Source: Dehalococcoidia bacterium (GTDB taxonomy: Bacteria; Chloroflexota; Dehalococcoidia; GIF9; AB-539-J10). From it: a stretch of DNA of 64,000 nt. The stretch spans positions 35,623 through 99,622 of the forward strand of contig JBATUN010000021.1 of assembly GCA_049671165.1 (NCBI GenBank), written 5' to 3'. Shown here piece after piece: positions 6,108-32,924 of the stretch. A model generated the notes under the pieces. The model saw nothing but the letters and a program-made list of their open reading frames with translations, had not been told where the DNA came from and did not search any database. Both the position numbers and the translations under genes were made by a program. The stretch's first letter is position 1. Each line of letters begins with the position of its first letter.

Positions 6108-6113
6108 CAACTT

Positions 6114-6815
6114 TCAGCCTTCAAGGGCGGAAGTATAAGCTGGCCTGGCTTTCAGGTCTAACAGCTGATGCAGCTTGCTCAGAGCTTTTTTGGTATCGCT
6201 AGCCACGCGGGATTTATCGCGAGTCTTTATCCGATATTTGAATAGCCAATAGGTAAATTCATTGAGCTCGCTGAGTCTCATAGACCTGAGCTGAGGATAA
6301 TGCCGCTCCTTTCTAAATTGCTTTAGAAGGGCAGATTGGGAGGCACCATAAACACGCTGGTAGGCGTCGTCCACTACTCCGTTATCGTTGTGCAAACCTA
6401 AAACTCTCTTTTTCTTTCGTATCTCTTCAGTTACAGACAAAAGGAGAAACTTTTCCACAAGAATGCCATAGAAATAATTGAGATGAGCCTGGTATTTAGA
6501 AGCACCGATAAGATTCTTAAATTCGTCTTTAGATAATTCTACTGGTGGTATACCGAAGAAGAGAAGATTCGTCCGCTCCTTTTCGGGAATAAGTCCATCG
6601 AGCTCTTCACATAACCTCTCGGTCAGGACTAGCCAATCGAAAGCTTCATTGTCAACAAGATACTGATAATGTCGCCCGTCGTAGTCCTCTTCAAGACTAC
6701 TCCATAGGCAAATGGCTTCGAGTACGGCCACGTACCAGTTCTTGCCTTCAGCAATAGCACTTTTCAGCTCTTGGATTGCCTGAGTATCTCGAGTAGACAC
6801 TCCAGCCACCTCCAT
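6114..6815 (-). CDS. hypothetical protein
   Basis: 233-aa ORF convergent with valS; no recognisable motif. Confidence 0.45.
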   Translation of the reverse strand: MEVAGVSTRDTQAIQELKSAIAEGKNWYVAVLEAICLWSSLEEDYDGRHYQYLVDNEAFDWLVLTERLCEELDGLIPEKERTNLLFFGIPPVELSKDEFKNLIGASKYQAHLNYFYGILVEKFLLLSVTEEIRKKKRVLGLHNDNGVVDDAYQRVYGASQSALLKQFRKERHYPQLRSMRLSELNEFTYWLFKYRIKTRDKSRVASDTKKALSKLHQLLDLKARPAYTSALEG

Positions 6816-6905
6816 AATTATTCTAGAAACCTATATTATATCTCCATCAGTCCGAGGGCTCAAGGCACAGCATCGTCGTTCAATACCTTAGCCAGCCCTC
6901 TCTCA

Positions 6906-7050
6906 TCATTGCGACAAGCGATGCCGGAGCTGCGAGCGAAGCGTGGCAGGATGAAGCAATCTCTAAGCCAGGTTCCTTAGTCCAACCATAGCAGGCTTGA
7001 GGTTCACAATGAGATTGCCACGCCCCGACAGGTCAGTGCTCGCAATGACA
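6906..7050. repeat. nested palindromic MITE-like repeat, copy A (outer arms tcattgcga / tcgcaatga, inner arms gaagcaatctc / gagattgc)
   Basis: Inverted arms read directly from the sequence; homologous to 10839-10965. Confidence 0.5.
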
Positions 7051-7105
7051 GGGAAGATATTACCCAATGTCACAAACATAACTAGTCTATCCACAATTGA
7101 TAGCA

Positions 7106-8113
7106 TTACTGCGTTGCGACATCAGTTGGCTTGCGCAGCGGCTTGAAGGTGCCGCCGGCGGCTATCCTGGAGACAACTTCCTCAGCTTCCTTGATTATCC
7201 TGTCTATCAACTCCTTGACCGTGGGAATATCATGAACAAGGCCTATTACCTGCCCCACGCTAAGCAGTCCGTTATCGACATCACCTGCTTCAAGCAATTT
7301 CAGTCCTACTCTGCCGCTGATGAGCGATTCCAATTGATGTATATCGGCGCCTTGCTTTTCCAGCTCGAGCACTTTTTCGGATGTCGGGTTTTTCAATGCT
7401 CTCATCGTGTTGCGGAATGAGCGCAGCACCAATACGGTGTCACGCTCCGATGCTGTTGTTAGCAATTCTTTCACTTTGGGATGTCCTGGTGCCTCTTTAG
7501 TTGCCATAAAGCGGGTACCCATATTGACCGCTTCTGCTCCCAGTGCCAGGGCGGCAACAAGACCACGCGCATCGCCGAAGCCTCCAGACGCGATAACAGG
7601 AATATCCACAGTATCCACAGTTAACGGAATCAGGACGAGGGAGGTAACATCCTCCTCGCCAGGGTGTCCGGCGCACTCAAAACCATCAATGCTAACGGCG
7701 TCGCAACCTATTCGCTGAGCAGTGCGAGCGAAGCGGACTGCGGTGCACTTGTGTATCACCTTTACGCCAGCCGCCTTGAGCCGCTCCATATATGGCTCCG
7801 GGCTTCTGCCGGCTGTTTCCACAATCTTTATTCCAGAATCGATAACCGTATTCAAATAGCCGTCAATATCGACAGGGCGAAGAGTGGGCAACAGGGTTAT
7901 ATTTACTCCGAAGGGTTTATCGGTGAGTTCTCTAGTCTTTTTGATTTCAGCAGCCAGTTCCGCAGGAGTCGGAAATGTAAAGGCCGTGATTATGCCGAGC
8001 CCGCCGGCGTTGGACACTGCGGATACCAGCTCTGCCCGGGAAATCCACATCATTCCGCCCTGGGTGATGGGATACTTGATGCCGAAAAGCTCGGTTATGC
8101 GCGTTTTGAACAT
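7106..8113 (-). CDS. nitronate monooxygenase / FabK-family FMN oxidoreductase
   Basis: MFKTRITELFGIKYPITQGGM...GGLGII, the NMO/2-nitropropane dioxygenase signature. Confidence 0.85.
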   Translation of the reverse strand: MFKTRITELFGIKYPITQGGMMWISRAELVSAVSNAGGLGIITAFTFPTPAELAAEIKKTRELTDKPFGVNITLLPTLRPVDIDGYLNTVIDSGIKIVETAGRSPEPYMERLKAAGVKVIHKCTAVRFARTAQRIGCDAVSIDGFECAGHPGEEDVTSLVLIPLTVDTVDIPVIASGGFGDARGLVAALALGAEAVNMGTRFMATKEAPGHPKVKELLTTASERDTVLVLRSFRNTMRALKNPTSEKVLELEKQGADIHQLESLISGRVGLKLLEAGDVDNGLLSVGQVIGLVHDIPTVKELIDRIIKEAEEVVSRIAAGGTFKPLRKPTDVATQ

Positions 8114-8310
8114 CGTGTTTCCTCCTTCTGATATTTGTGGCTAATTATACCACTTGCTAGTTTGGTGAAGTTTGAGCATAGCTTGAGACTTCATCAGATG
8201 CTTGACAAGTATATGTGAGCAAACTATATTTCCTCTTCATCAACCTACGATAGCCTGAAGAACTGCGCCCAAAAGCCTGCGGGATAAAGTCTTGACAAAG
8301 GAGGGCCAAG

Positions 8311-8625
8311 ATGGGAAAAGAAATCTCTATTTACAACCTGGCCGATGGTGTGACTGATGAGCACTACCAAGAGTACGTTAAGAATATTAAGGGCCCCTTT
8401 CTGGAGAGCCTGCCTTCGGTTAGCAAGTTCGAGCTGGTCAGGATAAAGGGGGCGGTGACGGGGGAATCCCCCTATACCTATGTCGGCATCCTGCATGTGG
8501 ACAACCTAGATGAATTCTACCAGAGAGATGTCCCATCTCAGCAATTCCAGGACTTTCTAAAGGAAGTGATGCCGATGATTAAGCAGGAAGGTTATCACAT
8601 GATGTACGGGGAGGAAATCTACTAA
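8311..8625 (+). CDS. small hypothetical protein (possibly dimeric alpha/beta-barrel-like)
   Basis: 104 aa with AGGAGG ribosome-binding site 8 nt upstream; fold assignment is a guess. Confidence 0.45.
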   Translation: MGKEISIYNLADGVTDEHYQEYVKNIKGPFLESLPSVSKFELVRIKGAVTGESPYTYVGILHVDNLDEFYQRDVPSQQFQDFLKEVMPMIKQEGYHMMYGEEIY

Positions 8626-8917
8626 TATTCGAAAGGCACTGTGTTTCGTTGGCGGCAAGGGCATGAGGCTTTGTCGGAGGATTGAGCAACTTTTGGGAAC
8701 ACATTTGACTCTCGTCACTTCTGACGACGAAGTAGGAAGGATGCAAACAAATGGTGCTCGAATTTGGTCAGCTGATGGGATATTATCTCCCGGCCCCCTC
8801 CTTGAAATGTATCCACACCTTTGTTCGCAATTCTGCCGTAGTCTGTCAAAGACCAGCCATTCCCTCGGGATTTCTGGGACGAAACGCCATCCAAGTCGAG
8901 CTCGCCAACAGAGCTAG

Positions 8918-10642
8918 TTAGCTCTTCCTATTCAAAGTGGCTAGCAATTCTTCTAGCGGTAATGTATTTAATATATGCTGTGGCTCGCACCAAGCGCGCC
9001 GCGCAACGCCAACCCCGAATCGCATAAAGCCCAGATGGGCAATGCTATGAGCGTCCGTTCCGATGGCGAGCTTTACCCCCAATTCTCGAGCACGAAAAGC
9101 ATGGGTGTCGTTTAAATCGAGGCGGTCAGGCATGGCGTTGATTTCCAAAACCTTATTATACTTGGCTGCCGCCCGGAAGACGGCTTCCAAGTCTATGGCT
9201 ACGGGCTCCCGCTCTCCTATAAGGCGGCAAGTAGGGTGGGCAATCATGTCGACATCGGGATTCTCTATGGCGTTTATTACCCTCCGGGTCATCTTTTCCT
9301 CACTTTGGCTCATGGCGGAGTGCACAGCGGCATTCACTATATCCAGTTCGGATAAAATCTCGTGTGGCAGGTCCAGGCTACCATCCGCCCGAATATCCAC
9401 CTCGATGCCTGTAAGCACATGAATCCCGATCAAGCGCTCGTTAAGAGCTTTGATTTCACCAATCTGCTGCCTCAGCCTATCCACATCGAGACCGTGAGCA
9501 ATACCACGTCCAGCGGAATGTTCCGTGATTGCGATATATTGATAGCCCATGTCTTGGGCCGCCCGAGCCAGCTCCTCGATGGAATTGTGCCCATCACTCC
9601 ATTCAGTGTGTGTATGAAGGTCGCCCTTTATGTCGGATAACTCCACAAGCTCTGGTATAGCTCCCTGCGCAGCCTTTTCTATTTCACCCTGTGCCTCTCT
9701 GAGTTCCGGTGGGATGTACTGAAGCCCCAGCCGATGATAGAATTCCTCCTCCGTAGCAAATCTTTCCAGCTTGTCTGTGGCTACAACGCTTATCCCGTAT
9801 TCACTCAGCTTTAAACCCTGCTTATGCCATTTCTCTCTCAGGGAAATGTTGTGCTGTTTGCTGCCGGTGAAATACTGAAGTAGAGAACCGAAGGAGTCAT
9901 GCTCCACCATCCTCAAGTCAACTTGCATTCCGCCGCTGACAATAACAGTGGCTTTGGTTGACCCCTGGGCCAGCACCTGTCTTACTTGAGGGAGTGCCAC
10001 GAGCGCATCTATCACGTCCTTGGGGTTATCGGCAGTGCCCATCAGGTCAATATCGCCCACTGTTTCTCGAAAGCGACGCAAGCTGCCGGCGGGAGTGAGA
10101 TTCTTCACCCCGGGGACAGAGTGGAGGCCAGCTATGATCTCCTCGACAATGGGCAGGGCCTCGCCAATGGGAATGCGCTGGTCTTTGCGGCGCAATGCCT
10201 GAATCTGGTGGAGGATATTATCGGCAGTCTTTTCGCCTAGTCGGAAGAGCTTAGCTACTCGCCTATCATTGATTGCTCGCTCCAGTTCATCTACCGAGCT
10301 TATCCCTAATTCGCTGGAAAGCTTGTTAGCCGTCTTAGGGCCAATCCCTGGTATGGTCAGAAGATTTGTTATCCCCTGGGGAAACTCCGCCTTCAGGTCG
10401 TCATAATAACCCAGTCTACCAGTCGTTATTAGCTCGGTGGTTTTCTTGGCTATTGCCTCACCCACGCCCGGAACACTGTGCAAGTCCTCCCCATCGTCGA
10501 TCATGGCCTCTAATTCTCTGGGGTGATGCTCGATAGCCCGGGCTGCCTTCTGATAGGCGCGAATCTTGAAGACATTCTCTCCTTTAAGCTCCAGAAGATC
10601 AGCAATATCCTGAAATACCTTGGCCACCTCGCTGTTTTTCAT
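8918..10642 (-). CDS. polX: DNA polymerase X family protein with C-terminal PHP phosphoesterase domain
   Basis: N-terminal helix-hairpin-helix (KIRAYQKAARAIE), pol-beta-like core, C-terminal PHP His/Asp motifs (HTHTEWSDG). Confidence 0.9.
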   Translation of the reverse strand: MKNSEVAKVFQDIADLLELKGENVFKIRAYQKAARAIEHHPRELEAMIDDGEDLHSVPGVGEAIAKKTTELITTGRLGYYDDLKAEFPQGITNLLTIPGIGPKTANKLSSELGISSVDELERAINDRRVAKLFRLGEKTADNILHQIQALRRKDQRIPIGEALPIVEEIIAGLHSVPGVKNLTPAGSLRRFRETVGDIDLMGTADNPKDVIDALVALPQVRQVLAQGSTKATVIVSGGMQVDLRMVEHDSFGSLLQYFTGSKQHNISLREKWHKQGLKLSEYGISVVATDKLERFATEEEFYHRLGLQYIPPELREAQGEIEKAAQGAIPELVELSDIKGDLHTHTEWSDGHNSIEELARAAQDMGYQYIAITEHSAGRGIAHGLDVDRLRQQIGEIKALNERLIGIHVLTGIEVDIRADGSLDLPHEILSELDIVNAAVHSAMSQSEEKMTRRVINAIENPDVDMIAHPTCRLIGEREPVAIDLEAVFRAAAKYNKVLEINAMPDRLDLNDTHAFRARELGVKLAIGTDAHSIAHLGFMRFGVGVARRAWCEPQHILNTLPLEELLATLNRKS

Positions 10643-21061: not shown

Positions 21062-21889
21062 ATGCCGGAACTGCCTGAGGTAGAGACCATCAAGAACGAG
21101 CTTGCGCCCTGGGTCGTGGGGCAAAGCTTCACCAAAGTCACTATCTCTGATGCCAAGCTGGTGTGCGGTGGTTCTGCTCAGGAAGTCCGTCGCGGATTAA
21201 TCCGGCAGAAGATAGAAAGCCTGGGACGCCGGGGAAAGTATCTCATCTTTCACCTATCGAATGGCAGGTCACTGGTTATACATCTCAGGATGACCGGCAG
21301 CTTGCTGTTAAATCCCAAAGAGGTTGACCGCTATGCCCGGGCAGTTTTTCGCCTTTCCAACGGGCACCGCCTTGTTTTCAGTGACCGGCGCCGCCTGGGG
21401 GTGCTGTGGCTGGCAGACGATGCCGGTACTGTCGTTTGTAAGCTGGGTCCCGAGCCGCTGGATAAAGCCTTCACGCCGAACGTTCTGAAGCAAAGGCTAA
21501 GCTGGCATCACATCCCGATAAAAGCCGCGCTTCTCGACCAGCGTATCGTCGCTGGAATCGGCAATATGTATGCCGATGAAGCCCTCTTTGCCGCTCGTAT
21601 TCAGCCACTGAGGAAAGCAGACGACTTGTCGCCCAAAGAAGTACGAACTTTACATAATTGCATCCGCAGGATTCTTCGGGCAGCCATCGGCAGCAAAGGC
21701 GCCAGCGTGGATACCTACGTCCGCCCCGAAGGCGAGCTGGGCACAGCCCATTTCGATTTTAAGGTTGCTCATAAGGGAGGCGAACCCTGCCCCGTTTGCG
21801 GCAGCACCATCGAGCGGGTCGTGGTGCAAAACCGCGGCACTTACTTCTGCCCCCGATGCCAACGTCTCAAACCCGGGCACTCAAAATAA
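21062..21889 (+). CDS. fpg: formamidopyrimidine-DNA glycosylase (Fpg/MutM family)
   Basis: N-terminal MPELPEVE (catalytic Pro2/Glu3), H2TH, C-terminal CxxC...CxxC zinc finger; 275 aa. Confidence 0.9.
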   Translation: MPELPEVETIKNELAPWVVGQSFTKVTISDAKLVCGGSAQEVRRGLIRQKIESLGRRGKYLIFHLSNGRSLVIHLRMTGSLLLNPKEVDRYARAVFRLSNGHRLVFSDRRRLGVLWLADDAGTVVCKLGPEPLDKAFTPNVLKQRLSWHHIPIKAALLDQRIVAGIGNMYADEALFAARIQPLRKADDLSPKEVRTLHNCIRRILRAAIGSKGASVDTYVRPEGELGTAHFDFKVAHKGGEPCPVCGSTIERVVVQNRGTYFCPRCQRLKPGHSK

Positions 21890-22033
21890 GAGCTGACGGC
21901 GGCGGGATTTGCGCCAGCGACTAAGGGCTTCCCAACGCCTTGGCTCATCCTGCCGTATCTTTACCCTATGGGTAGCCTTGCCGATCCCCCAGCAAACCAC
22001 CCCGCTATCCTCAAGCTTCACTTAGCTAGCAAG

Positions 22034-22042
22034 TGGTATAAT
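22034..22042 (+). promoter_or_regulatory. extended -10 promoter element TGGTATAAT for the radical-SAM operon
   Basis: Perfect TGnTATAAT ~65 nt upstream of ATG 22108, with a GAGAGGAAA ribosome-binding site in between. Confidence 0.35.
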
Positions 22043-22107
22043 TTAGGAATAAGATTTAATCTACAAATTCATAAGATAGTTTGGACTTACGAAAAGAGAG
22101 GAAATAG

Positions 22108-23403
22108 ATGAGTGAACAGGGAGTCAAGCATATAACCGTGCCAGGACTCAGGCTACATCTCAGAAGGGATGATAACCACAGTATTCTCTGGATAAACAGC
22201 CAAAAAGTATTAATACTTAATACCACAGCGGCTGATTATGTCGAAGCATATATTGATGCTATGCGTTCTACCTCACAATTTGACCAATCGGTAGTCAAGT
22301 CTAAGATTGTAAAAGCAATAGAAGAGAAATACCCTACAGTCACTAAGGAGAGAATACTCAGCGACTTTGATACTTTGTATGCTCAAATACTTGCGATAGC
22401 TGAAAACAAATGTCCGGTTTATGACCTGGGAATTGGACAGCAAGTTATGGATATAAACAAACTAACGGCACCACCAAGAGTAGACCTGGCACTAACTTAT
22501 AGATGCAATAATAAATGTTCCTACTGCTATACAGGTGGCTCGCGTAAGACTAAGGAATTAGACACAACGGATTGGACACAAATACTTGATAAGCTTTGGA
22601 AAGCCGGGGTACCTCAAGTAGTATTTACCGGTGGAGAGCCTACGTTAAGAGACGACTTGGTCCCACTGGTGAGTCATGCTGAAGAGTTCGTGACTGGCTT
22701 GGTCACAAATGGACGTTTGCTACATAAGCTATCTAAGGGCTTAAAGGAGGTAAGCTTAGATTACGTTCAAGTTAGTATTGAATCCAATTCCCAGTCTATA
22801 CACGATGAGATGACGGGTGTGTCCAACTCCTGGGCGGAGACCGTAAATGGGATCAGGGCAGCAGAAAAAGAAGGTTCAAATGTCTACACCAATACTACCC
22901 TTACCAAGCGTAATGCGGACCATTTTACCTCTACTATGGAATTTCTAGCCTCCCTGGGGGTCAAAGGTATAGCTTGTAACAGTCTAATATGTAGTGGCTT
23001 AGGGTGTAAGGCAATTGAAAAGGATGGGCTAAGCGAGGAAACGTTAAAGGGCATTTTACAGGATGCCTGTGACAAAGCCAGAGAGCTAAAGATAGAGTTT
23101 AATTGGTATACCCCTACTTGTTATAAGAAGTTGAACCCCATAGATTTGGGCTTGGGAATAAAAAGCTGCTCGGCTGCTCAGTATAATGTAACCATTGAAC
23201 CAGATGGGACTGTTATTCCATGTCAGTCACTCTTCAACCACAAAATGGGGCATATTATGAAGGATAGCTGGGAAAAGATTTGGGGTAATGAGTTTGCGAA
23301 AAAGATTAGAAATCACTACTTCATCAGTGAGGAATGTAAGTCCTGTAGTTTTCTAGAGACTTGCGGAGGTAGCTGTCCTTTGGCGACCGGAGAATTGAAA
23401 TGA
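22108..23403 (+). CDS. radical SAM / SPASM-domain maturase with N-terminal PqqD-like RiPP recognition element
   Basis: N-terminal ~100 aa PGLRLHLRRDDNHSILWINSQKVLILNTTAADYVEAYIDAM (PqqD-like); CNNKCSYC (Cx3Cx2C); C-terminal Cys clusters CKSCSFLETCGGSCP (SPASM). Confidence 0.85.
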   Translation: MSEQGVKHITVPGLRLHLRRDDNHSILWINSQKVLILNTTAADYVEAYIDAMRSTSQFDQSVVKSKIVKAIEEKYPTVTKERILSDFDTLYAQILAIAENKCPVYDLGIGQQVMDINKLTAPPRVDLALTYRCNNKCSYCYTGGSRKTKELDTTDWTQILDKLWKAGVPQVVFTGGEPTLRDDLVPLVSHAEEFVTGLVTNGRLLHKLSKGLKEVSLDYVQVSIESNSQSIHDEMTGVSNSWAETVNGIRAAEKEGSNVYTNTTLTKRNADHFTSTMEFLASLGVKGIACNSLICSGLGCKAIEKDGLSEETLKGILQDACDKARELKIEFNWYTPTCYKKLNPIDLGLGIKSCSAAQYNVTIEPDGTVIPCQSLFNHKMGHIMKDSWEKIWGNEFAKKIRNHYFISEECKSCSFLETCGGSCPLATGELK

Positions 23404-24584
23404 GAAGAGTCCTACTGATAGCTGCCGTATTTCTTATTGCTTTAGCTTTGCTGCCTGTTCCGATATACGCTGATACCGGTACCTATGACATACTAGATTA
23501 CGTAGTAGAACTAACTCCCTTGGATGATGGTACTGTACATATGACGTACTACCAGGAATGGCTATGTACCGGGGGTCATATACCCTGGGTGACAGTCGGC
23601 ACTGCAAATAGTCATTTTGACATCATAAGTACTGGAGGCAATGTTGAATCTGCCAGAGACAACAGTAGCGGTGGTTGGCAGGGAGTCTACCTGACACTGG
23701 ATAAAGACTATACTTCCGGTGAGAAGTTTACTATATCTTTTTCAATAGTCCAGCGAGATCTCCTGGAAAGGTTAACCAATGAAGGAAAGTGGAGAATAGA
23801 TTTTACCCCCGGGTGGTATGATAATTGCGTTACAGATAACCTTACTATCACACTGAACTCGCCAGTGTCAGTTAGCACATATAGTTTTGCACCGCAACCT
23901 GCTCAAGTAATAGATAATATCGTCACCTGGCAAACCAGTTTAGCTAGAGGAGATAGGTTTAACGTTAGGATGGGATCCTATGATGGAAGTTTTCTTCAAC
24001 CTACAGAACCTACTGGTCCCAGCTTTAATTGGGTATGGGTATTAATACCCGTTTTTGTAGTTGGATTCTTACTCGTTATGTTTGTTAGAAGCAGGAAAAG
24101 AGAAGAATCTACTACTTCGGAAGAGTATATCTTTGATGAGAAGGGTAATCTAGATGATAGGTTAAAAGAGGCAAAGGAGAAGTGGGATAAAGATAAGAAA
24201 GATACTAAGTTCTCTGACACAGAACAAGCTAGATTTGATGAGTTTGTGGCTGAGAAAAGGCTGGAACCTGATATTAACGGAAACTACTATTACAATGGTA
24301 ACTTCATCAACCCCTGGATATTGTTCGGGGCTTTAAATAGTCTTTCTTACCGTAAACCTAACATGAATGTATTTACAACGAGGGGTGCAGGGGCCAGAGG
24401 CGGTTCATCTTGCATTGCTGTTTCCTGCGCTTGTGTAGCGTGTGCTTGTGCCTGTGCTTGCGCATGCGCAGGAGGTGGTGCTGCTGGTTGTGCAAAGAAA
24501 CTGGATTATTACGATGGTATAGAATCCGGCGAGAAGGGCTGCACTATGGGGAATTCCAATCTAGCAAGCCGTTCTGGGGACTAG
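23400..24584 (+). CDS. single-pass membrane protein with predicted cytoplasmic C-terminal (Cys-Ala)n tail
   Basis: Signal peptide, ~190-aa ectodomain, TM helix (WVWVLIPVFVVGFLLVMFV + RSRKREE), tail ...SSCIAVSCACVACACACACACAGGGAAGCAKK; start overlaps the radical-SAM stop (ATGA). Confidence 0.7.
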   Translation: MRRVLLIAAVFLIALALLPVPIYADTGTYDILDYVVELTPLDDGTVHMTYYQEWLCTGGHIPWVTVGTANSHFDIISTGGNVESARDNSSGGWQGVYLTLDKDYTSGEKFTISFSIVQRDLLERLTNEGKWRIDFTPGWYDNCVTDNLTITLNSPVSVSTYSFAPQPAQVIDNIVTWQTSLARGDRFNVRMGSYDGSFLQPTEPTGPSFNWVWVLIPVFVVGFLLVMFVRSRKREESTTSEEYIFDEKGNLDDRLKEAKEKWDKDKKDTKFSDTEQARFDEFVAEKRLEPDINGNYYYNGNFINPWILFGALNSLSYRKPNMNVFTTRGAGARGGSSCIAVSCACVACACACACACAGGGAAGCAKKLDYYDGIESGEKGCTMGNSNLASRSGD

Positions 24585-24587
24585 AAT

Positions 24588-24751
24588 TCGAGGGCGAATT
24601 GAGCACAGCCCATTTCGATTTTAAGGTTGCTCATAGGGGAGGCGAACCTTGCCCCGTTTGTGGCGGCACCATCGAGCGGGTCCCGGTGCAGAACCGCGGC
24701 ACCTACTTTTGCGCCAGATGCCAGCCTTTGGGTCGCGGGCCTCTGATATAA
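24588..24751 (+). pseudogene. fpg 3' fragment (zinc-finger end, ...EGELSTAHFDFKVAHRGGEPCPVCGGTIERV...)
   Basis: High nt identity to 21725-21889 of intact fpg; no 5' part attached. Confidence 0.7.
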
Positions 24752-24755
24752 AAGC

Positions 24756-24811
24756 TGGCAATGGCTGGATTTGAACCAGCGATTAAGGGATTCCTAAGCC
24801 CCTGGTTCATC
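24756..24811 (-). repeat. tRNA-like 3' half (T-arm + acceptor), ~24/27 identical to the tRNA-Met 3' end at 44440
   Basis: tggcaatggctggatttgaaccagcga versus tggcagcgggtggatttgaaccaccga; a degenerate homolog follows the intact fpg at ~21899. Confidence 0.35.
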
Positions 24812-24938
24812 TACGAGCACTAGTGTTCTGAAGCTCCTTCTCCAAGGACTTCCATCTGCCCAGGTCTTTTATAGTTGTGAAAAGTTCGTTAGCAAAAATG
24901 TTAGCAGAATACATAACCTTTGTTTTAGGGCTTGTGCG

Positions 24939-25427
24939 ATGTATAATTGGTGGAAAGTTGCAGAAGTCGAAGGAATCATGCCTCGACGAGAGTACGTGCC
25001 CAGTCCAATAGATACGCTTAGTCCAGAAGCAAGAAGCAAACGAATGAGCCTTGTTAAGGGGCGTGATACTAAGCCTGAGCGACATGTTCGTGAAATATTA
25101 AAGAAACTGGGCTATCGCTATCGATTACAATATTCAAGGTTACCTGGCAAACCTGATTTTGCTTTGCCTGGAAAGCGTAAGGCCATTTGGGTTCATGGGT
25201 GTTTCTGGCACCGCCATGAAAATTGCTCATTGGCTAGGTTACCTAAGGGGGGCCAGGATTTCTGGATACCGAAATTGGAGGGGAATAGGAAGCGTGATTT
25301 GGAGCATCAGGATAAAGTAAGACAAATGGGGTGGCAAATTTTGGTGATATGGGAATGCGAATTGAGCAATCAACCTTCAGTAGAATCTAAGATAAAGCAG
25401 TTCTTGGAGAATCATGAGATCAATTGA
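24939..25427 (+). CDS. vsr: very-short-patch repair endonuclease
   Basis: ARSKRMSLVKGRDTKPERHVR...WVHGCFWHRHENC; start may be an internal Met (MPRRE). Confidence 0.8.
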   Translation: MYNWWKVAEVEGIMPRREYVPSPIDTLSPEARSKRMSLVKGRDTKPERHVREILKKLGYRYRLQYSRLPGKPDFALPGKRKAIWVHGCFWHRHENCSLARLPKGGQDFWIPKLEGNRKRDLEHQDKVRQMGWQILVIWECELSNQPSVESKIKQFLENHEIN

Positions 25428-26466
25428 GTTGTTCACCGGAGCCGGTGGTTTGGCGTTGGGAATTCATTTAGCTGGATTCGAGCATCAATTACTAGTCGAA
25501 GCGGACGACGATGCCTGTGAGACGTTAGTTCATAATAGTAAAAACGAAACGGTTTCAGGAATATCGAGATGGCCAATAGTTCGCGATCTAGTTGAATTGG
25601 TTGATCTAAGCAGTTATCAGAAAATTGATTTGCTGGCCGCAGGCATTCCGTGCCAACCGTTCAGTAACGGAGGGAAGCGCGGTGGCATTGAGGACGATAG
25701 GAATATGTTTCCTGTATTCGCTAGAGTCCTTGCCGCCTTAAAGCCGCAGGCTTTTCTGCTGGAGAATGTGAACGGACTAATAAACGGCAAACTTGCAAGC
25801 CACATGGAATATATTATTTTGCAGCTACGGCATCCTTGGAATTTGGCAAGGAATGGCCAAACGTGGAAAGATCATTTAGAAGAATTGCGATACATAACTG
25901 AAAAAGATATAAGGAAAGACACGGACTATAAAGTGTATTTCCAAGTTTTGGATGCTGCCAATTATGGAATTCCGCAGATTAGGAAGCGCGTCTTCGTTGT
26001 TGGATTCCGAAGGGATTTAGAGACCAACTGGAATTTTCCGACAGCCACTCACTCAAAGGAAGCACTTTTGACCAACAATAAAAAGGCGTGGCTAACCGTC
26101 CGTGACGCCATCAGAGGTCTACCGAAGAGTGGCACCAAAGCCGCCGCCGGTATTCAACACGTTATGGTCCCTGGAGCTAGGAGCTACAAGGGACACACTG
26201 GCAGTGTCTTAGACTGGCCAGCCAAGTCATTGAAGGCTGGGAATCATGGAGTTGGGGGTGGAGAGAACACGTTACGTTATCAGAATGGTCGTGTCAGGTA
26301 TTTCACGGTAAGAGAGTGTGCGCGCTTGCAGACCTTTCCGGACTCTTGGGTATTCAAAGGACCTTGGTCCAGCGTGACAAGACAAATTGGTAACGCCGTG
26401 CCGGTAAAGATGGCTACCGTAGTGGCGAAGTCAATAAGAGAACTGTTGGGGAATTCGGTAGAATAA
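25414..26466 (+). CDS. dcm: DNA (cytosine-5)-methyltransferase
   Basis: Motif I FTGAGG, PCQPFS catalytic motif, ENV, QIGNAV; overlaps the vsr stop. Confidence 0.9.
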   Translation: MRSIELFTGAGGLALGIHLAGFEHQLLVEADDDACETLVHNSKNETVSGISRWPIVRDLVELVDLSSYQKIDLLAAGIPCQPFSNGGKRGGIEDDRNMFPVFARVLAALKPQAFLLENVNGLINGKLASHMEYIILQLRHPWNLARNGQTWKDHLEELRYITEKDIRKDTDYKVYFQVLDAANYGIPQIRKRVFVVGFRRDLETNWNFPTATHSKEALLTNNKKAWLTVRDAIRGLPKSGTKAAAGIQHVMVPGARSYKGHTGSVLDWPAKSLKAGNHGVGGGENTLRYQNGRVRYFTVRECARLQTFPDSWVFKGPWSSVTRQIGNAVPVKMATVVAKSIRELLGNSVE

Positions 26467-26478
26467 GTATAGGGATTA

Positions 26479-27609
26479 CTAGGACGACTTATTGTAACTT
26501 GGTAAGCTAACTTTAAAAACTGATTGAAAGTATTCACTCATATAGTCGTATTGACGCTTTATTGCTCCAGCATCGTTCGGAGACTGTTTCTCGCGGTCAA
26601 AGTACACCAGAATCTGTTCAAGTTGGGACAATGGTTCTTTTGTAGTCCCTGCTGCGAGTCTCTGCGATTTTTTACGAGCAGCGGTTAATTCATCGTTGAA
26701 CTGTTCAAGCGTCTGCTTGGTGAAAGGCACTGGAATACTAGATTCTTGACAAATTCGGAAGATGTGGAAGTATAGAGTCATTCTTCCCTGACTGGCTAGT
26801 AACGGGTCTTTGTGATCAAAGAATTCATTCATTTTGTCCATGATTTTGGTTGTATTGGATTGCATAGATTGTAAATGCTCGGGGGATGCCTCGGGTTGTT
26901 TCATGTCGCGATACTCGCGGAACTTAGTCACGAATTCATCTAGCATCTTTTTCTTGGTGGATTCGATGGAATTAACGTAGGTTAGATACAAGAACTTAGC
27001 CGCCAAGTCAAAGTGTTGCCTGCGTTTGTTAGTTATGCGGACTGATTGCTGGAAGAAGGCGTGGAATCCTATTTTTTGAATGACGAAGGGTAGGGGCCCG
27101 CCGAGAGCGTTTCGTCTTTCACCAGCACTAAGTGATACTTGTATATTGAGGCGTGAGAAAAGGTCATCAATGAAGTCTGTGTCATCTGTTTGAACGACTG
27201 TGACTGGTAAGTCGAAGCCATCAAACCGAGCACGCAAGCGAGGGAACTTAGACATTAGCTCATCATATTTAGCCCCTCCAGCTTCTATGGACTCATCGTC
27301 ATAGAAGATGAAGTTTTTGGGAAGAGATAGTTCATTTTCCATGAATCTCCACAAGGAATATAGACGTTGTTTGCCGTCAATAACGGCATACCTGTATTTG
27401 CCAGTCTGGTTAGGCGTTGGCGGAATCTGATAAAAATATAGCTTAGGGACATCAAAGCCGTTAAGTATGGAATCAATGAAACATTGCTGTTGCCCTTCAT
27501 CCCAGATCGAAAAACGTTGGTAGGGGGGGTCAAGGTCAATCTGGTCTTTCCATTCATACAATTGTAATATATTGTTTGCCCTCAACGGGTACATTTTGAA
27601 GCGTGGCAT
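26479..27609 (-). CDS. DUF262 (ParB-like nuclease superfamily) protein, candidate restriction/defense nuclease
   Basis: DPPYQRFSIW...IDGKQRL motifs at the N-terminus. Confidence 0.7.
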   Translation of the reverse strand: MPRFKMYPLRANNILQLYEWKDQIDLDPPYQRFSIWDEGQQQCFIDSILNGFDVPKLYFYQIPPTPNQTGKYRYAVIDGKQRLYSLWRFMENELSLPKNFIFYDDESIEAGGAKYDELMSKFPRLRARFDGFDLPVTVVQTDDTDFIDDLFSRLNIQVSLSAGERRNALGGPLPFVIQKIGFHAFFQQSVRITNKRRQHFDLAAKFLYLTYVNSIESTKKKMLDEFVTKFREYRDMKQPEASPEHLQSMQSNTTKIMDKMNEFFDHKDPLLASQGRMTLYFHIFRICQESSIPVPFTKQTLEQFNDELTAARKKSQRLAAGTTKEPLSQLEQILVYFDREKQSPNDAGAIKRQYDYMSEYFQSVFKVSLPSYNKSS

Positions 27610-28499
27610 TAGTCACCTCCCAGAAGATCTTTTGCTTCTCTGGCGACATTGTCAAGTTCTGGGAAAAGTATTCTTCTATTAACTCCGATTCTTCCAAGCT
27701 CCTGATATATCGGTTCTTTGTGTTCTTGAGGTATCTTATATCTCCAGATATGCGTGCCATCCTTGAGCGCCTGTTCGACCGGAGTTTTATTATTGACATG
27801 ATGTATAGTGAAAACGCTCATTTGCACCTGCATACGGCGGTTAGTGCGTGGCGCTATACCCGCAGCGGGCAATCGGCCGGGAGGCAAATCCTCACTGATT
27901 GTTGTTGGCAGATAAAGGTCAATTGTCTCACCTGCACCGCGTGAGACTTCTTCTGGATTGCCAGAAAGCATCGGAAGCGTGTAATCGTCATTTGGCCATT
28001 TAAGTGAAACAACATTAAGACGATTCGGTAGCAAACACCATAAGACACCGTCATCGGCATATGGATTTTTAGGGTCTTCTCTTGGATAGACGGCGAAGTA
28101 TAAGGCTACCAAAGGATTTTCGGTCCAATCAAGCAAGCGTGAAGGCGCCTTATGATGACGCATGAGAAACATCCACTCCCATATGCTGTTGGGAATTTGG
28201 GCAAGGATTTCGTGTGCATTCTGTTTAAACAGGTTCATGAGATAAATTTCGTCCTTGATATCAACCTTGCATTCCTTCCTATAGAAGGTGGGTAATAATT
28301 TGCGGCTGATTTTTCTCAAGCCCCTATACCAAATCGGAGGTTTAGAGTAGTTACCTTTAAGAGGGGTCTCACCTGCAGGATGTTGCCTAGAAGTACGTTT
28401 TGGCTCAAGCGCCTCGCGTAATCTCTCCTCATCTTTCTGTAATGCAGCTAATAAGTCGGCGACGCTCGTTATTTTATCTTCATCAAAAAGGTAGGCCAT
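27609..28499 (-). CDS. FRG-domain protein
   Basis: IWYRGL...LLPTFYR and ...HHKAPSRLLDWTENPLVALYFAV match the FRG-domain core. Confidence 0.6.
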   Translation of the reverse strand: MAYLFDEDKITSVADLLAALQKDEERLREALEPKRTSRQHPAGETPLKGNYSKPPIWYRGLRKISRKLLPTFYRKECKVDIKDEIYLMNLFKQNAHEILAQIPNSIWEWMFLMRHHKAPSRLLDWTENPLVALYFAVYPREDPKNPYADDGVLWCLLPNRLNVVSLKWPNDDYTLPMLSGNPEEVSRGAGETIDLYLPTTISEDLPPGRLPAAGIAPRTNRRMQVQMSVFTIHHVNNKTPVEQALKDGTHIWRYKIPQEHKEPIYQELGRIGVNRRILFPELDNVAREAKDLLGGD

Positions 28500-28873
28500 A
28501 TGTTCTAACCCACGTTATGAAGGTTATGAACGAAATTATATGCCTTAAGAGAATTGAGCGCAATAGATAAAGGGGATGCGGATTAATAATTACATCGGAG
28601 TGACGATAAGAAACTGTCAGTAACGATCAAAAGTCGGCCGTAGCTTTATTCTTGACGGCTGGTGAGTGGGCGGATAATGAAGAGAGAGGAGCTAATGCGA
28701 CCCCCCTTATTATTTCATAGTGGTAAAATTGTGACTTTTGAGTATTGCCATCCTAATCAAAAGTCAGGCAGACTGTTTGAATCAAAAGTTGTCGATCAAC
28801 GAATAACGTTTGTGACTCTCTATCGCACCGTAGCATCCCGCCGCCTGGCAATATCGATTAGTCACCATCAACG

Positions 28874-29210
28874 TTGACAGAAAGCCTACCTCAAATTATT
28901 ATCTTCTGTTTCTAATAGCTTCCATTACCGAAAGAAGAACTCCGACACCTATGAGAGAGTAACCTATCGCACGAGAATCACCGAAGATAATCCCCAGAAC
29001 CACTAAGGACATACCAAGTATAGCGAGGTTTGATGGTTGTTGATATTGCCTTCCCCTGGCTATAAGCAGAAGAACCACAATAACAACCAGGGCAATGATT
29101 GAAATGGTTATCCACACGGGTTCCATGAATACCTCCTTTTAGAAGTACTGGCTACTTTCAAAAATTATAGCACTGAGGGCAAAGAGAAGATGTATTATTG
29201 CCAGGGAAAA
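28874..29210. repeat. ~335-bp direct repeat R1 (carries the small membrane-protein gene)
   Basis: ~90% identical to 31166-31500. Confidence 0.7.
28899..29126 (-). CDS. small two-TM membrane protein (75 aa)
   Basis: MEPVWITISIIALVVIVVLLLIARG...; paralog at 31188. Confidence 0.55.
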   Translation of the reverse strand: MEPVWITISIIALVVIVVLLLIARGRQYQQPSNLAILGMSLVVLGIIFGDSRAIGYSLIGVGVLLSVMEAIRNRR

Positions 29211-29354: not shown

Positions 29355-30929
29355 TCACGGAGTGCTGGCTACAAACTTCTTTTTATCCTTTTTACAGATA
29401 ATTTGTATCGTATGCCGACCCGACATAACCGCCGTAGGCATTCCGCCGCCCGGATTGACCCACTGCCCGGCCATGTAGAAATTGTCAAGTCCCGGCAGAG
29501 TCTTGCTCATCTGCATCATGAGAGTCTTGGGGGTAATCATCCATCCTTCATAGCTGCCCTTCCAGTTACCGGTATAACGTACCCATGTCATCGGAGTAGC
29601 TACGTCACGCATCTCTACCTGGGCTGCCAGTCCCGGAAAGCGCTTATCGAGAAGGGCAACCACCGTATCTGCTATCTGCTCTTTCTCCGCTTTATATCGT
29701 TCGGGCTCTTTGTATAACCTCTCCCAGTAATCGTAATCCGTATTGAACTGGACCTTGACCACGGTCTTGCCCTCCGGCGCCAGGGTGGGGTCGAAATTGT
29801 AAATGAGTACGCCGAGTGTTTTCTGTGCTTTGCCGGCAATAGTTACGGGTTTCTCCAGAGGGAAAGTAAGACCGCCTACCGAGGGCGGCACATCATCGAA
29901 TTTACGAGCCACTCCCAGGCCGATATATACCAGCGGTGGAAACAATTGGAGATTGTCATAATAGCCGCGTATCTTGTCATCGATGTATTTACCATCCAGC
30001 ATATCGAAAATGGTGGTATGACCATCGGCGGCAGAGATAACGATGTCGCCCCGGTGTTCCGTACCATCCGCCAGCCTTGTGCCTACAGCTTTATCGTTTT
30101 CTACCAGTACTTTTTCTACCCTTGCCTTGAGATGCAGTTTGCCGCCAAGGTCAAGGTAGCGTCGCTGAATATAGCTGACAAGGGCCAGGGCGCCGCCGAT
30201 GACATAGCCGGCTGCCTGCTGGTGTTGCCAGGCAAGCATCATCGGCATGGTTATCGCGGGCATGTCGGCGAAGTCATCCTCGGGATCTACGTTGACAACT
30301 TTACGAAGTAAGGGGTTTTTAAAGCGCTGAGCGAAATCGGCCGTGCGAATTTCAGCCCACTTTCGTATGAACCTTAAATAAGGCAGCATTTTGACCGTCT
30401 TGATGCCATCGATTAGGCTATAAAGCTCCTGGGGCTTATCTACAGGCATGTCGGATCGAGCGAGATAGCGTATTGCTTTGGTGAACTCGCGGATGACCGC
30501 TTCATCCTCGGGGGCAAATTCCATCATCTGCTGTTCGAGGCGGTTGACATCGGAATACATGTTAAAAACCTTACCACTTTCATCTTCAATGATAGTGAAC
30601 TGGTCAAGATTGATAACTTTCCACTGCTGCGCCGCCCCAAGCTCTTCCCACAACTTGTAAAAGCTGGTTCCCGGTTTGGTGCCCACCAGCCAGTTCATTG
30701 CGCCATCAATGGTGTAGCCCTTGCGTTGCCAGCCGGTGCATACCCCGCCAGCCTTATCATGCATCTCAAAAACAGACGTACGGTAACCGTTCATCCGACC
30801 GTAGCACCCCGCCGCCAGACCGGTGAGTCCACCCCCGATGATGATTATTGACTTTTCCACATTTCTTCCTTTTCGGCTTAGATTATTAACAGGATAGTGC
30901 ATGCTATATTGATGTCTGCTAATTGTCAA
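29355..30929 (-). CDS. FAD/NAD(P)-binding oxidoreductase, phytoene-desaturase (CrtI) family
   Basis: IIIIGGGLTGLAAGCYG Rossmann motif near the N-terminus; ~524 aa. Confidence 0.8.
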   Translation of the reverse strand: MTISRHQYSMHYPVNNLSRKGRNVEKSIIIIGGGLTGLAAGCYGRMNGYRTSVFEMHDKAGGVCTGWQRKGYTIDGAMNWLVGTKPGTSFYKLWEELGAAQQWKVINLDQFTIIEDESGKVFNMYSDVNRLEQQMMEFAPEDEAVIREFTKAIRYLARSDMPVDKPQELYSLIDGIKTVKMLPYLRFIRKWAEIRTADFAQRFKNPLLRKVVNVDPEDDFADMPAITMPMMLAWQHQQAAGYVIGGALALVSYIQRRYLDLGGKLHLKARVEKVLVENDKAVGTRLADGTEHRGDIVISAADGHTTIFDMLDGKYIDDKIRGYYDNLQLFPPLVYIGLGVARKFDDVPPSVGGLTFPLEKPVTIAGKAQKTLGVLIYNFDPTLAPEGKTVVKVQFNTDYDYWERLYKEPERYKAEKEQIADTVVALLDKRFPGLAAQVEMRDVATPMTWVRYTGNWKGSYEGWMITPKTLMMQMSKTLPGLDNFYMAGQWVNPGGGMPTAVMSGRHTIQIICKKDKKKFVASTP

Positions 30930-31138: not shown

Positions 31139-31172
31139 ATGAAACCGTTAGTAGTTTATTATTCTTTGACAG
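31139..31172 (+). pseudogene. flavodoxin 5' fragment (MKPLVVYYSLT) fused to repeat R2
   Basis: 29/34 nt identical to the start of the flavodoxin gene at 31903. Confidence 0.45.
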
Positions 31173-31500
31173 AAAGCCTACCTCACATTATTGTTTTCTG
31201 TTTCTAATAGCATCAATTACTGAAAGAAGAACTCCGACACCTATGAAAGAGTAACCTATCAGACGATCATCACCGAAAATAATCCCCAGCACCACAAAGG
31301 ACAGGCCAACTATAGCGAGGTTTGAGGGTTTATGATATCGCTTTCCCCTGGCTATAAGCAAAAGCACCACAATAACAACCAGGGCAATGATTGAAATGGC
31401 TATCCACACGGGTTCCATGAATACCTCCTTTTAGAAGTACTGGCTACTTTCAAAAATTATAGCACTGAGGGCAAAGAGAAGATGGATTATTACCACGGAA
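31166..31500. repeat. ~335-bp direct repeat R2
   Basis: Pairs with 28874-29210. Confidence 0.7.
31188..31418 (-). CDS. small two-TM membrane protein (76 aa), paralog of 28899-29126
   Basis: ~85% aa identity to its paralog. Confidence 0.55.
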   Translation of the reverse strand: MEPVWIAISIIALVVIVVLLLIARGKRYHKPSNLAIVGLSFVVLGIIFGDDRLIGYSFIGVGVLLSVIDAIRNRKQ

Positions 31501-32809: not shown

Positions 32810-32924
32810 GACTAGGCGGCACTGGCGGGATTTGCATCGGCGTACAAACAGTAAGCTATAATGGCCAGGAATATGCCGTGCGAGATTTCCGGGCTGAACA
32901 AATTATCAAGGAGTCGCGTAATCT

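What the first reader, a model, noticed from the sequence alone, without database searches (positions are those of the whole stretch)
24939..28499. Defense-type island: vsr + dcm convergent with DUF262 and FRG-domain genes
The Vsr/Dcm pair is solitary (no cognate type II endonuclease is recognisable). It is followed on the opposite strand by a DUF262 ParB-like nuclease-family protein (DGQQR-like IDGKQRL) and an FRG-domain protein. Established knowledge: both families are enriched in defense islands, DUF262 in GmrSD-like type IV enzymes. The pairing DUF262+FRG without DUF1524/HNH may be a distinct modification-dependent or abortive-infection module. Inference: the dcm methylation could also be the epigenetic mark that protects against, or is sensed by, the neighbouring nuclease.
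Basis: partly seen in the sequence, partly recalled or inferred. Interest (0 to 1): 0.55.

Follow-up and report, generated by a model that had tools for sequence, protein, structure and literature searches.

The report
Conserved FRG–DUF262 pair beside cytosine methylase
A 4-kb mobile cassette in a Dehalococcoidia genome joins a cytosine methylase and its repair nuclease to a tightly conserved, experimentally unstudied gene pair: a DNA-sensing NTPase and an ADP-ribosyltransferase-like protein that is most likely a new kind of antiviral module.

Summary
The genes are vsr (24939-25427), dcm (25414-26466), a DUF262 gene (26479-27609, minus strand) and an FRG gene (27609-28499, minus strand).

FRG and DUF262 form a real two-gene operon:
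- Their stop and start codons overlap (TAATG).
- FRG lies directly upstream of the DUF262 homologue in all 78 informative genome loci, spanning at least 10 phylum-level groups.
- The two proteins co-evolve (r = 0.89).

The DUF262 protein has a ParB-like NTPase domain and a helical domain, like BrxU and SspE, but no nuclease domain. FRG models as an ADP-ribosyltransferase fold.

The pair is strongly but not obligatorily linked to cytosine-5 methylases: 46 of 84 loci, against 2 of 48 control loci with other DUF262 proteins (p = 5e-10). Those methylases are heterogeneous and usually carry their own restriction enzyme (Eco29kI-like, NotI-like and others). The window cassette has none.

The cassette (24785-28865) moves as a unit. 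It is 95.5% identical to a relative whose flanking DNA is only 83-85% identical.

Best reading: a DUF262 sensor plus an NAD+-using FRG effector, forming a defence module that rides with m5C restriction-modification systems. It is a new variant of a known kind and has not been tested experimentally.

The parts
24785..28865 (.). The mobile four-gene cassette as a whole (vsr-dcm convergent with FRG-DUF262)
   Evidence: One 4081-nt block is 95.5% identical to metagenome contig L135, while the flanking syntenic DNA is only 83-85% identical. In L135-L138, IS (rve) transposases lie beside the cassette. The same four genes in the same order occur in L001 and L002 with unrelated flanks.
24939..25427 (+). 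vsr, very-short-patch (T:G mismatch) repair endonuclease; probable true start at 24978
   Evidence: PF03852 E=8e-26; TIGR00632 131 bits (cut-off 98). The NCBI protein MGB5925511 is 149 aa. DNA similarity to L001 begins at 24978.
25414..26466 (+). dcm, DNA cytosine-5 methyltransferase, with no cognate restriction enzyme in this window
   Evidence: PF00145 E=8e-61; PADLOC MTase_II 349 bits. The best solved relative is M.HaeIII, matched in the conserved motifs only, so the target sequence is undetermined. No restriction-enzyme remnant is found.
26479..27609 (-). DUF262 protein: ParB-like NTPase domain plus an all-helical C-terminal domain; predicted DNA or DNA-modification sensor and NTP-driven switch
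27609..28499 (-). FRG-domain protein: predicted ADP-ribosyltransferase-fold, NAD+-using effector
27607..27625 (-). Translational-coupling junction: GGAGGTG Shine-Dalgarno sequence, then the FRG stop overlapping the DUF262 start (TAATG)
   Evidence: Read directly from the sequence. Stop and start overlap in 61 of 76 loci and lie within 20 nt in 73 of 76.
28500..28865 (-). Non-coding leader upstream of FRG, conserved as part of the cassette; presumed promoter or regulatory region
   Evidence: It lies inside the 95.5% identity block with L135. There is no Rfam match. Consensus promoter hits are not above the shuffle expectation.
24589..24811 (+). Duplicated 3' end of fpg, marking the left border of the cassette (insertion hot spot)
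   Evidence: A 223-nt direct repeat of 21727-21949, 80% identical ungapped (83% mean column identity in the MAFFT alignment of wider stretches). An fpg 3' fragment also lies near the cassette in L135-L138.

Best explanation
FRG-DUF262 is an autonomous, horizontally mobile two-gene conflict (antiviral) module.

Proposed mechanism (inferred, not shown):
- The DUF262 protein (ParB-like NTPase plus a helical DNA-binding-type domain) acts as an NTP-dependent sensor and switch. This is the role DUF262 plays in GmrSD, BrxU, SspE and Menshen NsnA.
- By analogy with those systems, it probably responds to foreign DNA carrying unusual cytosine modification or to a related DNA feature.
- The translationally coupled FRG protein, which has an ADP-ribosyltransferase fold, is the effector. 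It either consumes NAD+ or ADP-ribosylates a nucleic acid or protein target, stopping infection.

The module is preferentially recruited next to cytosine-5 restriction-modification units. Here that unit is a vsr-dcm pair that lacks a restriction enzyme, and the four genes travel together as a 4-kb cassette. On this reading the methylase unit and the pair are complementary layers rather than one enzyme system.

Shown: gene content, strict pairing, co-evolution, folds, intact motifs, the Dcm association and cassette mobility.

Inferred: the sensor and effector roles, NAD+ use, the trigger and the defence function.
For: - Pairing: FRG is directly upstream of the DUF262 homologue in 78/78 informative genome loci across at least 10 phylum-level groups, in 4/4 IMG/VR members and in Ralstonia and Hymenobacter replicons.
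- Coupling: stop/start overlap in 61/76 loci; TAATG with a Shine-Dalgarno sequence in the window.
- Co-evolution: pairwise-identity matrices of the two proteins correlate at r=0.89.
- DUF262 protein: folds like BrxU, SspE, ParB and DndI and has no nuclease domain. NTPase motifs are invariant. Closest validated defence profiles are Menshen NsnA and PD-T4-2_A.
- Autonomy: the pair occurs without Dcm in 38/80 loci. L029 is 90% identical to the R-M-linked L028.
- Mobility: a 95.5% identity block against 83-85% flanks, with IS elements adjacent in relatives.
- Selection: all four genes are intact, with dN/dS 0.27-0.55.
- Family size: about 1,200 clusters at 50% identity with E<=1e-30.
Against: - No experiment exists. 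PADLOC lists FRG proteins only as an unvalidated single-gene candidate.
- The position expected for the catalytic Glu before strand 5 holds an invariant Gln (Q226). Canonical ADP-ribosyltransferase chemistry is therefore not assured.
- In Dcm-less loci the neighbours are mostly housekeeping genes, not defence islands. The rest of this window is also housekeeping.
- A strong positive association with m5C methylases is not what a simple m5C-sensing type IV system would show. Simple complementarity does not explain why only C5 methylases are involved; only 2 of 1158 neighbouring ORFs carry N6/N4-methylase motifs.
Confidence: 0.5

Rival explanations
1. Restriction-modification-like reading. Dcm methylation is the self-mark. 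The DUF262 protein detects unmethylated target DNA and FRG acts in place of a restriction nuclease. The four-gene cassette would then be one complete system whose 'R' arm is not a nuclease.
For: - Dcm lies within about 5 kb, usually under 1 kb, of the pair in 46/84 loci against 2/48 controls, p=5e-10.
- The association is specific to C5 methylases and holds across unrelated Dcm families.
- Ten Dcm-positive loci, including the window, L001, L002 and L135-L138, have no recognisable restriction enzyme. In these the four genes move as one unit.
- There is a weak PADLOC REase_II hit on the DUF262 N-terminus.
- GGCC is depleted in the window, 206 observed against 329 expected.
Against: - 27 loci carry an Eco29kI-family restriction enzyme next to the Dcm, and others carry NotI-like or other type II enzymes. 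The methylase therefore already has a partner.
- The pair persists intact without a linked Dcm (L029, L050, 20 Ralstonia megaplasmids).
- The DUF262 C-terminal domain is conserved regardless of Dcm family, which argues against reading different methylated sequences.
- DUF262 and Dcm co-evolve only at r=0.43.
Confidence: 0.17
2. Toxin-antitoxin or addiction module. FRG is an NAD+-dependent toxin held in check by the DUF262 protein. The pair stabilises itself and the neighbouring restriction-modification cassette on mobile DNA, with no dedicated phage sensing.
For: - It is a compact two-gene, translationally coupled cassette found alone among housekeeping genes and beside IS elements.
- The nearest folds include the TA toxins DarT, RES, ParT and MbcT.
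Against: - A 370-aa NTPase with invariant ParB-type motifs, plus a DNA-binding-type domain, is far more elaborate than known antitoxins of ADP-ribosyltransferase-fold toxins (Xre or macro domain).
- No such antitoxin domain is present.
Confidence: 0.12
3. DNA-damage or repair signalling linked to 5-methylcytosine. The pair marks or processes lesions such as T:G mismatches, nicks or abasic sites, by PARP-like or Tpt1-like ADP-ribosylation of DNA ends, working alongside Vsr and Fpg/Nei.
For: - Vsr accompanies 34 of 42 linked Dcm genes.
- The cassette lies directly downstream of an fpg or nei gene in three unrelated loci: the window, L078 and L045.
Against: - Most loci have no repair gene nearby.
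- Vsr is fully explained as a Dcm accessory.
- The pair has a patchy, horizontally transferred distribution typical of conflict systems.
- The fpg adjacency looks like an insertion hot spot, given the duplicated fpg 3' end.
Confidence: 0.05
4. Regulatory reading. The DUF262 protein is a DndB-like DNA-binding regulator of the adjacent methylase operon, and FRG is an accessory factor.
For: The protein has the same ParB-DUF262 plus helical-domain architecture that PMC12065111 describes for DndB. Its adjacency to dcm is frequent.
Against: The pair is conserved in 38 loci with no methylase to regulate. Its obligate partner is FRG, not Dcm. There is no Pfam DndB match.
Confidence: 0.04

Closest known systems
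GmrSD / BrxU / SspE (type IV, modification-sensing DUF262-DUF1524 enzymes)
   Same: They share the N-terminal ParB-like DUF262 NTPase domain with the QR, DG(Q/K)QR and FxxxN motifs, followed by a helical domain. BrxU and SspE are the best structural matches.
   Different: This protein has no DUF1524 His-Me nuclease domain. A separate FRG protein takes the effector position. The pair is positively linked to m5C methylases, unlike a modification-dependent nuclease.
Menshen (NsnABC), PD-T4-2 and Dazbog: validated defence systems with a DUF262 protein but no DUF1524
   Same: The logic is the same: a DUF262 plus helical-domain sensor protein works with a separate effector. The best PADLOC hits are NsnA (9e-28) and PD-T4-2_A (2e-16). 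The architecture is described in PMC12065111 and PMC10952713.
   Different: There is no NsnB ABC ATPase, no NsnC nuclease and no HEPN partner here. The partner is an ADP-ribosyltransferase-fold FRG protein. There is no hit to Dazbog profiles.
ADP-ribosyltransferase-fold toxins and effectors (DarT, RES, ParT, MbcT, Tpt1/KptA)
   Same: The FRG model matches these folds. FRG sits in a two-gene cassette. An NAD+-dependent toxic or effector activity is the expected chemistry.
   Different: There is no sequence similarity to any of them. The catalytic Glu position holds Gln. The partner is a ParB-like NTPase rather than an Xre, macro-domain or other known antitoxin.
Eco29kI-type (GIY-YIG) and other type II m5C restriction-modification systems with Vsr
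   Same: The vsr-dcm unit is of this kind. In 27 related loci the homologous Dcm (40-50% identity) sits next to an Eco29kI-family endonuclease, often in a single vsr-dcm-REase-FRG-DUF262 operon.
   Different: The window cassette, and its relatives L001, L002 and L135-L138, lack any endonuclease. The window Dcm is about 40 aa shorter than the Eco29kI-linked ones, so its target may differ.
PADLOC candidate PDC-S15
   Same: The FRG protein matches PDC-S15 profiles (best E=1e-42).
   Different: PDC-S15 is an unvalidated single-gene candidate. In this subfamily the FRG gene always comes with a DUF262 partner.

Membership tests
GmrSD-family type IV restriction enzyme | N-terminal DUF262 domain with QR, DGQQR and FxxxN motifs | tested here: met
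   PF03235 E=5e-14. Q31 R32 W36, DGKQR at 78-82 and F151..N155 are conserved; all of these except K80 are identical in 100% of 79 sequences.
GmrSD-family type IV restriction enzyme | C-terminal DUF1524 His-Me finger nuclease domain, fused or as a GmrD partner | tested here: not met
   There is no DUF1524/HNH hit in Pfam or PADLOC. The C-terminal half is all-helical in the AF2 model, and no such gene lies nearby.
GmrSD-family type IV restriction enzyme | Cleavage of DNA that depends on base modification | not testable with these tools
   Needs enzyme assays on modified and unmodified DNA.
Menshen (NsnABC) | NsnA-like protein (ParB-DUF262 plus helical DNA-binding domain) | tested here: met
   PADLOC NsnA E=9e-28 over residues 12-267. 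The helical C-terminal domain is seen in the model.
Menshen (NsnABC) | Adjacent NsnB ABC ATPase and NsnC effector | tested here: not met
   The neighbours are FRG and dcm. No recurrent ATPase appears in the 80 loci.
PD-T4-2 | DUF262 protein (A) with its HEPN-containing partner (B) | tested here: not met
   The A profile matches (2e-16), but FRG has no PD-T4-2_B or HEPN hit. The HEPN domain is listed for PD-T4-2 in PMC10952713.
ADP-ribosyltransferase (ART) superfamily (FRG protein) | Split beta-sheet ART fold | tested here: inconclusive
   [not shown]
ADP-ribosyltransferase (ART) superfamily (FRG protein) | Catalytic triad (H-Y-E or R-S-E) with Glu at the start of strand 5 | tested here: inconclusive
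   The invariant R59 on strand 1 fits the 'aromatic-R' motif. The strand-5 position has invariant R222 and Q226 and no invariant Glu there. E84 is invariant elsewhere in the protein and E127 is 95% conserved.
ADP-ribosyltransferase (ART) superfamily (FRG protein) | NAD+ binding and ADP-ribose transfer or NAD+ hydrolysis | not testable with these tools
   Needs biochemical assays.
Type II restriction-modification system | Active C5 methyltransferase | tested here: met
   PF00145 E=8e-61, and the motifs FTGAGG, PCQ, ENV, QIRKR and GNAVPV are readable in the sequence.
Type II restriction-modification system | Cognate restriction endonuclease next to the methylase | tested here: not met
   There is no restriction-enzyme profile hit and no remnant of the Eco29kI-like or Mrr/helicase partners found in relatives. 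The criterion is met in many related loci.
Very-short-patch repair (Vsr) | Vsr endonuclease domain, with the gene overlapping dcm | tested here: met
   TIGR00632 131 bits, above the 97.85 cut-off; 14-nt overlap with dcm.
Toxin-antitoxin modules with ART-fold toxins (RES-Xre, DarTG, MbcTA) | Known antitoxin domain (Xre HTH, macro domain or MbcA) as the partner | tested here: not met
   The partner is a DUF262 NTPase with no such domain.

The most novel reading that the evidence does not exclude
The cassette is a complete self/non-self system without a nuclease. Dcm writes 5-methylcytosine as the self-mark and Vsr limits the mutational cost. The DUF262 NTPase reads cytosine-methylation status on incoming DNA, and FRG executes restriction by NAD+-dependent chemistry: ADP-ribosylating the unmethylated DNA or its ends, or collapsing NAD+. 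This would be a restriction-modification system whose 'R' is an ADP-ribosyltransferase-fold enzyme. It would explain why the pair associates only with C5 methylases, and why restriction-enzyme-free four-gene cassettes are exchanged as a unit.
Probability: 0.15. Interest if true: 0.85.

Novelty: new variant of a known kind. Interest (0 to 1): 0.6.

Why it matters
DUF262 sensors are known to drive HNH, HEPN or OLD/BECR nucleases. An obligate partnership with an ADP-ribosyltransferase-fold protein would add NAD+ chemistry to this sensor family. It would also give a function to the large, uncharacterised FRG domain family: about 26,000 clusters at 50% identity, of which about 1,200 belong to this subfamily.

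The specific, repeated recruitment of the pair to cytosine-5 methylase units with different restriction enzymes is unexplained. It points to a functional cross-talk between m5C restriction-modification and a second defence layer.

The pair exists in cultured, tractable bacteria (Ralstonia solanacearum, Vibrio cholerae 35D, Polaromonas JS666, Streptomyces, Mesorhizobium, Sulfitobacter). The question is therefore directly testable.

Tried and rejected
- A hidden restriction enzyme. I searched the window by tblastn with the Eco29kI-like, Mrr-helicase and GHKL partners found in relatives and found nothing.
- The radical-SAM gene at 22108-23403 as a viperin. Its PADLOC pVip hits are generic. NCBIfam places it among SPASM peptide maturases, and it belongs to a separate insertion.
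- Inferring the Dcm target from the sequence.
  - CCGCGG is not depleted (7 observed, 9.7 expected).
  - GGCC is depleted, but its deamination products are not enriched.
  - The M.HaeIII match covers only the conserved motifs.
  - The result is inconclusive.
- A third conserved component. Clustering 1158 neighbouring ORFs gave only Dcm, Vsr and restriction enzymes. The Dcm-less loci have no recurrent neighbour.
- FRG fusions that would reveal partners. There are none among the top 150 representatives.
- Sequence homologues of FRG in the PDB: none.
- Rfam families and promoter/terminator scans of the cassette: nothing above background.
- Literature. No held paper describes an FRG+DUF262 system. 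Burroughs & Aravind 2020 (J Bacteriol), which first discussed Frg, and their 2015 NAR paper are not held. A prior note of this pairing cannot be excluded.


Full report
**Observation.**

- Vsr matches PF03852 (8e-26) and TIGR00632 above its cut-off.
- Dcm matches PF00145 (8e-61) and has all catalytic motifs.
- The 376-aa minus-strand protein matches GmrSD_N/DUF262 (PF03235, 5e-14) and contains IDGKQRL.
- The 296-aa protein upstream of it matches the FRG domain (PF08867, 2e-23).

NCBI annotates the four as consecutive proteins MGB5925511-14 of a Dehalococcoidia MAG. vsr overlaps dcm by 14 nt. The FRG stop overlaps the DUF262 start (TAATG), preceded by GGAGGTG. dcm and the DUF262 gene converge with 12 nt between their stops. 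There is no DUF1524/HNH domain, no restriction-enzyme profile hit and no restriction-enzyme remnant in the window.

**The FRG-DUF262 pair is a real unit.**

A scan of one genome per species with an alignment of DUF262 homologues returned 80 loci from at least 10 phylum-level groups. These include Chloroflexota, Acidobacteriota, Alpha-, Beta- and Gammaproteobacteria, Actinomycetota, Bacteroidota, Planctomycetota, Verrucomicrobiota, Gemmatimonadota and Vibrio cholerae.
- An FRG homologue lies immediately upstream on the same strand in 78 of them. The other two contigs start at the DUF262 gene.
- Stop and start overlap in 61 of 76 loci.
- The pairwise-identity matrices of the two proteins correlate at r=0.89.
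- The pair also occurs in 20 Ralstonia solanacearum megaplasmids and a Hymenobacter plasmid, annotated only as 'FRG domain-containing' and 'DUF262 domain-containing' proteins.
- The FRG profile finds about 26,000 clusters at 50% identity, 1,200 of them at E<=1e-30. There are no fusions among the best 150.

**What the two proteins are.**

Residues identical in 100% of 74 sequences are W57 R59 G60, E84, F91, H115, R121, D124, F135, N162, R222, Q226 and F230. R59 sits on strand 1, as in R-S-E type enzymes. The usual catalytic Glu position holds Gln, so the chemistry may be non-canonical.

**The link to cytosine methylation.**

A Dcm homologue lies within the fetched flanks in 42 of 80 genome loci. 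Among loci with at least 5 kb on both sides the figure is 28 of 46. The distance is usually under 1 kb, and 34 loci also have Vsr. All 4 family members in IMG/VR have one too. Of 48 control loci holding other DUF262 proteins, 2 have a Dcm and none has FRG. Fisher's exact test gives p=5e-10. Only 2 of 1158 neighbouring ORFs carry N6/N4-methylase motifs.

The methylase units are heterogeneous:
- 27 loci carry an Eco29kI-family GIY-YIG endonuclease, often in a single vsr-dcm-REase-FRG-DUF262 operon.
- L060 has a NotI-like enzyme and L004 another type II enzyme.
- Four loci have an Mrr-helicase plus GHKL ATPase pair.
- Ten loci, including the window, have no recognisable endonuclease.

Dcm identity to the window protein ranges from 28% to 70% and correlates only moderately with DUF262 identity (r=0.43). 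The pair also survives without a linked methylase. L029 is 90% identical to the R-M-linked L028, and L050 is 87% identical to L055. In Dcm-less loci the neighbours are miscellaneous housekeeping genes.

**Mobility and context.**

A close relative (L135-L138) carries the same four genes at 94-95% protein identity. The shared block, window 24785-28865, is 95.5% identical in DNA, while the syntenic flanks are 83-85% identical. IS transposases lie beside the cassette there. L001 and L002 carry the same cassette with unrelated flanks. dN/dS values are 0.27-0.55.

The remainder of the 64-kb window is housekeeping: PolA, aminoacyl-tRNA synthetase, SecDF, and SAM-cycle and CoA-synthesis enzymes. This is a 4-kb cassette, not a large island. 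It sits at what looks like an insertion hot spot downstream of fpg.

**Interpretation.**

The best-supported reading is a two-gene conflict module. The DUF262 protein is an NTP-dependent DNA or modification sensor and switch. FRG is an NAD+-using effector. The module is commonly recruited beside m5C restriction-modification units. I give this 0.5.

In its favour are the exclusive association with C5 methylases and the endonuclease-free cassettes. Against it are the loci where Dcm has its own endonuclease and the Dcm-free occurrences. Addiction-module, repair-signalling and regulator readings are less likely.

**Novelty.**

I found no paper in the searchable library describing this pair. PADLOC holds FRG only as the candidate PDC-S15. 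The 2020 Burroughs & Aravind paper that introduced Frg could not be read. I therefore rate this a new variant of a known kind: a DUF262-sensor defence module with a new class of effector.

Noticed in passing
window 21727-21949 and 24589-24811: A 223-nt direct repeat, 80% identical ungapped (83% mean column identity in the MAFFT alignment of wider stretches). It covers the last ~160 nt of fpg plus ~65 nt downstream. The repeat brackets a radical-SAM/SPASM maturase (22108-23403) and a 394-aa membrane protein (23400-24584) with a Cys/Ala-rich tail (CACVACACACACACAGG...). It looks like an element inserted into the fpg 3' end that carries its own copy of that end. No integrase was seen.
   Followed up: partly
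window 21062-24811; L078 1622-3436; L045 4937-9149; L135 15904-16129: The FRG-DUF262 cassette lies directly downstream of an fpg or nei glycosylase gene in three unrelated genomes. In L078, fpg starts at the DUF262 stop. An fpg 3' fragment also lies near the cassette in L135-L138. This could be an insertion hot spot or a functional link to base-excision repair.
   Followed up: partly
window 28874-29173 and 31166-31465: A 300-nt direct repeat (92% identical) encodes paralogous 75- and 76-aa two-helix membrane proteins. They flank an amine-oxidase/phytoene-desaturase-like gene (29355-30929). The relative L135 has only one copy and different genes in between.
   Followed up: partly
whole window: GATC (100 observed, 255 expected) and GGCC (206 observed, 329 expected) are strongly under-represented, with no excess of the GGCC deamination products. 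This suggests past or present restriction pressure on these sites from systems not in the window.
   Followed up: partly
window 21901-21919, 24763-24781, 32824-32842: A 19-mer, GGCGGGATTTGCGCCAGCG, occurs three times (84% identity between copies). Two copies lie just after the two fpg ends and one lies before the beta-CASP gene. It may be an att-like or REP-like element.
   Followed up: no
L003 9480-13597; L007 1308-5395; L016; L048: A recurring pair of a GHKL-ATPase protein (~800 aa) and an Mrr-nuclease/SF2-helicase fusion (~558 aa) sits next to Dcm and the FRG-DUF262 pair. It looks like an ATP-dependent restriction module tied to C5 methylation.
   Followed up: partly
L059 (Vibrio cholerae 35D) 5277-9071: The V. 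cholerae copy has a dcm split into two ORFs (204 and 203 aa, possibly a frameshift) and an FRG protein with a ~110-aa N-terminal extension (389 aa).
   Followed up: no
[not shown]
   Followed up: no
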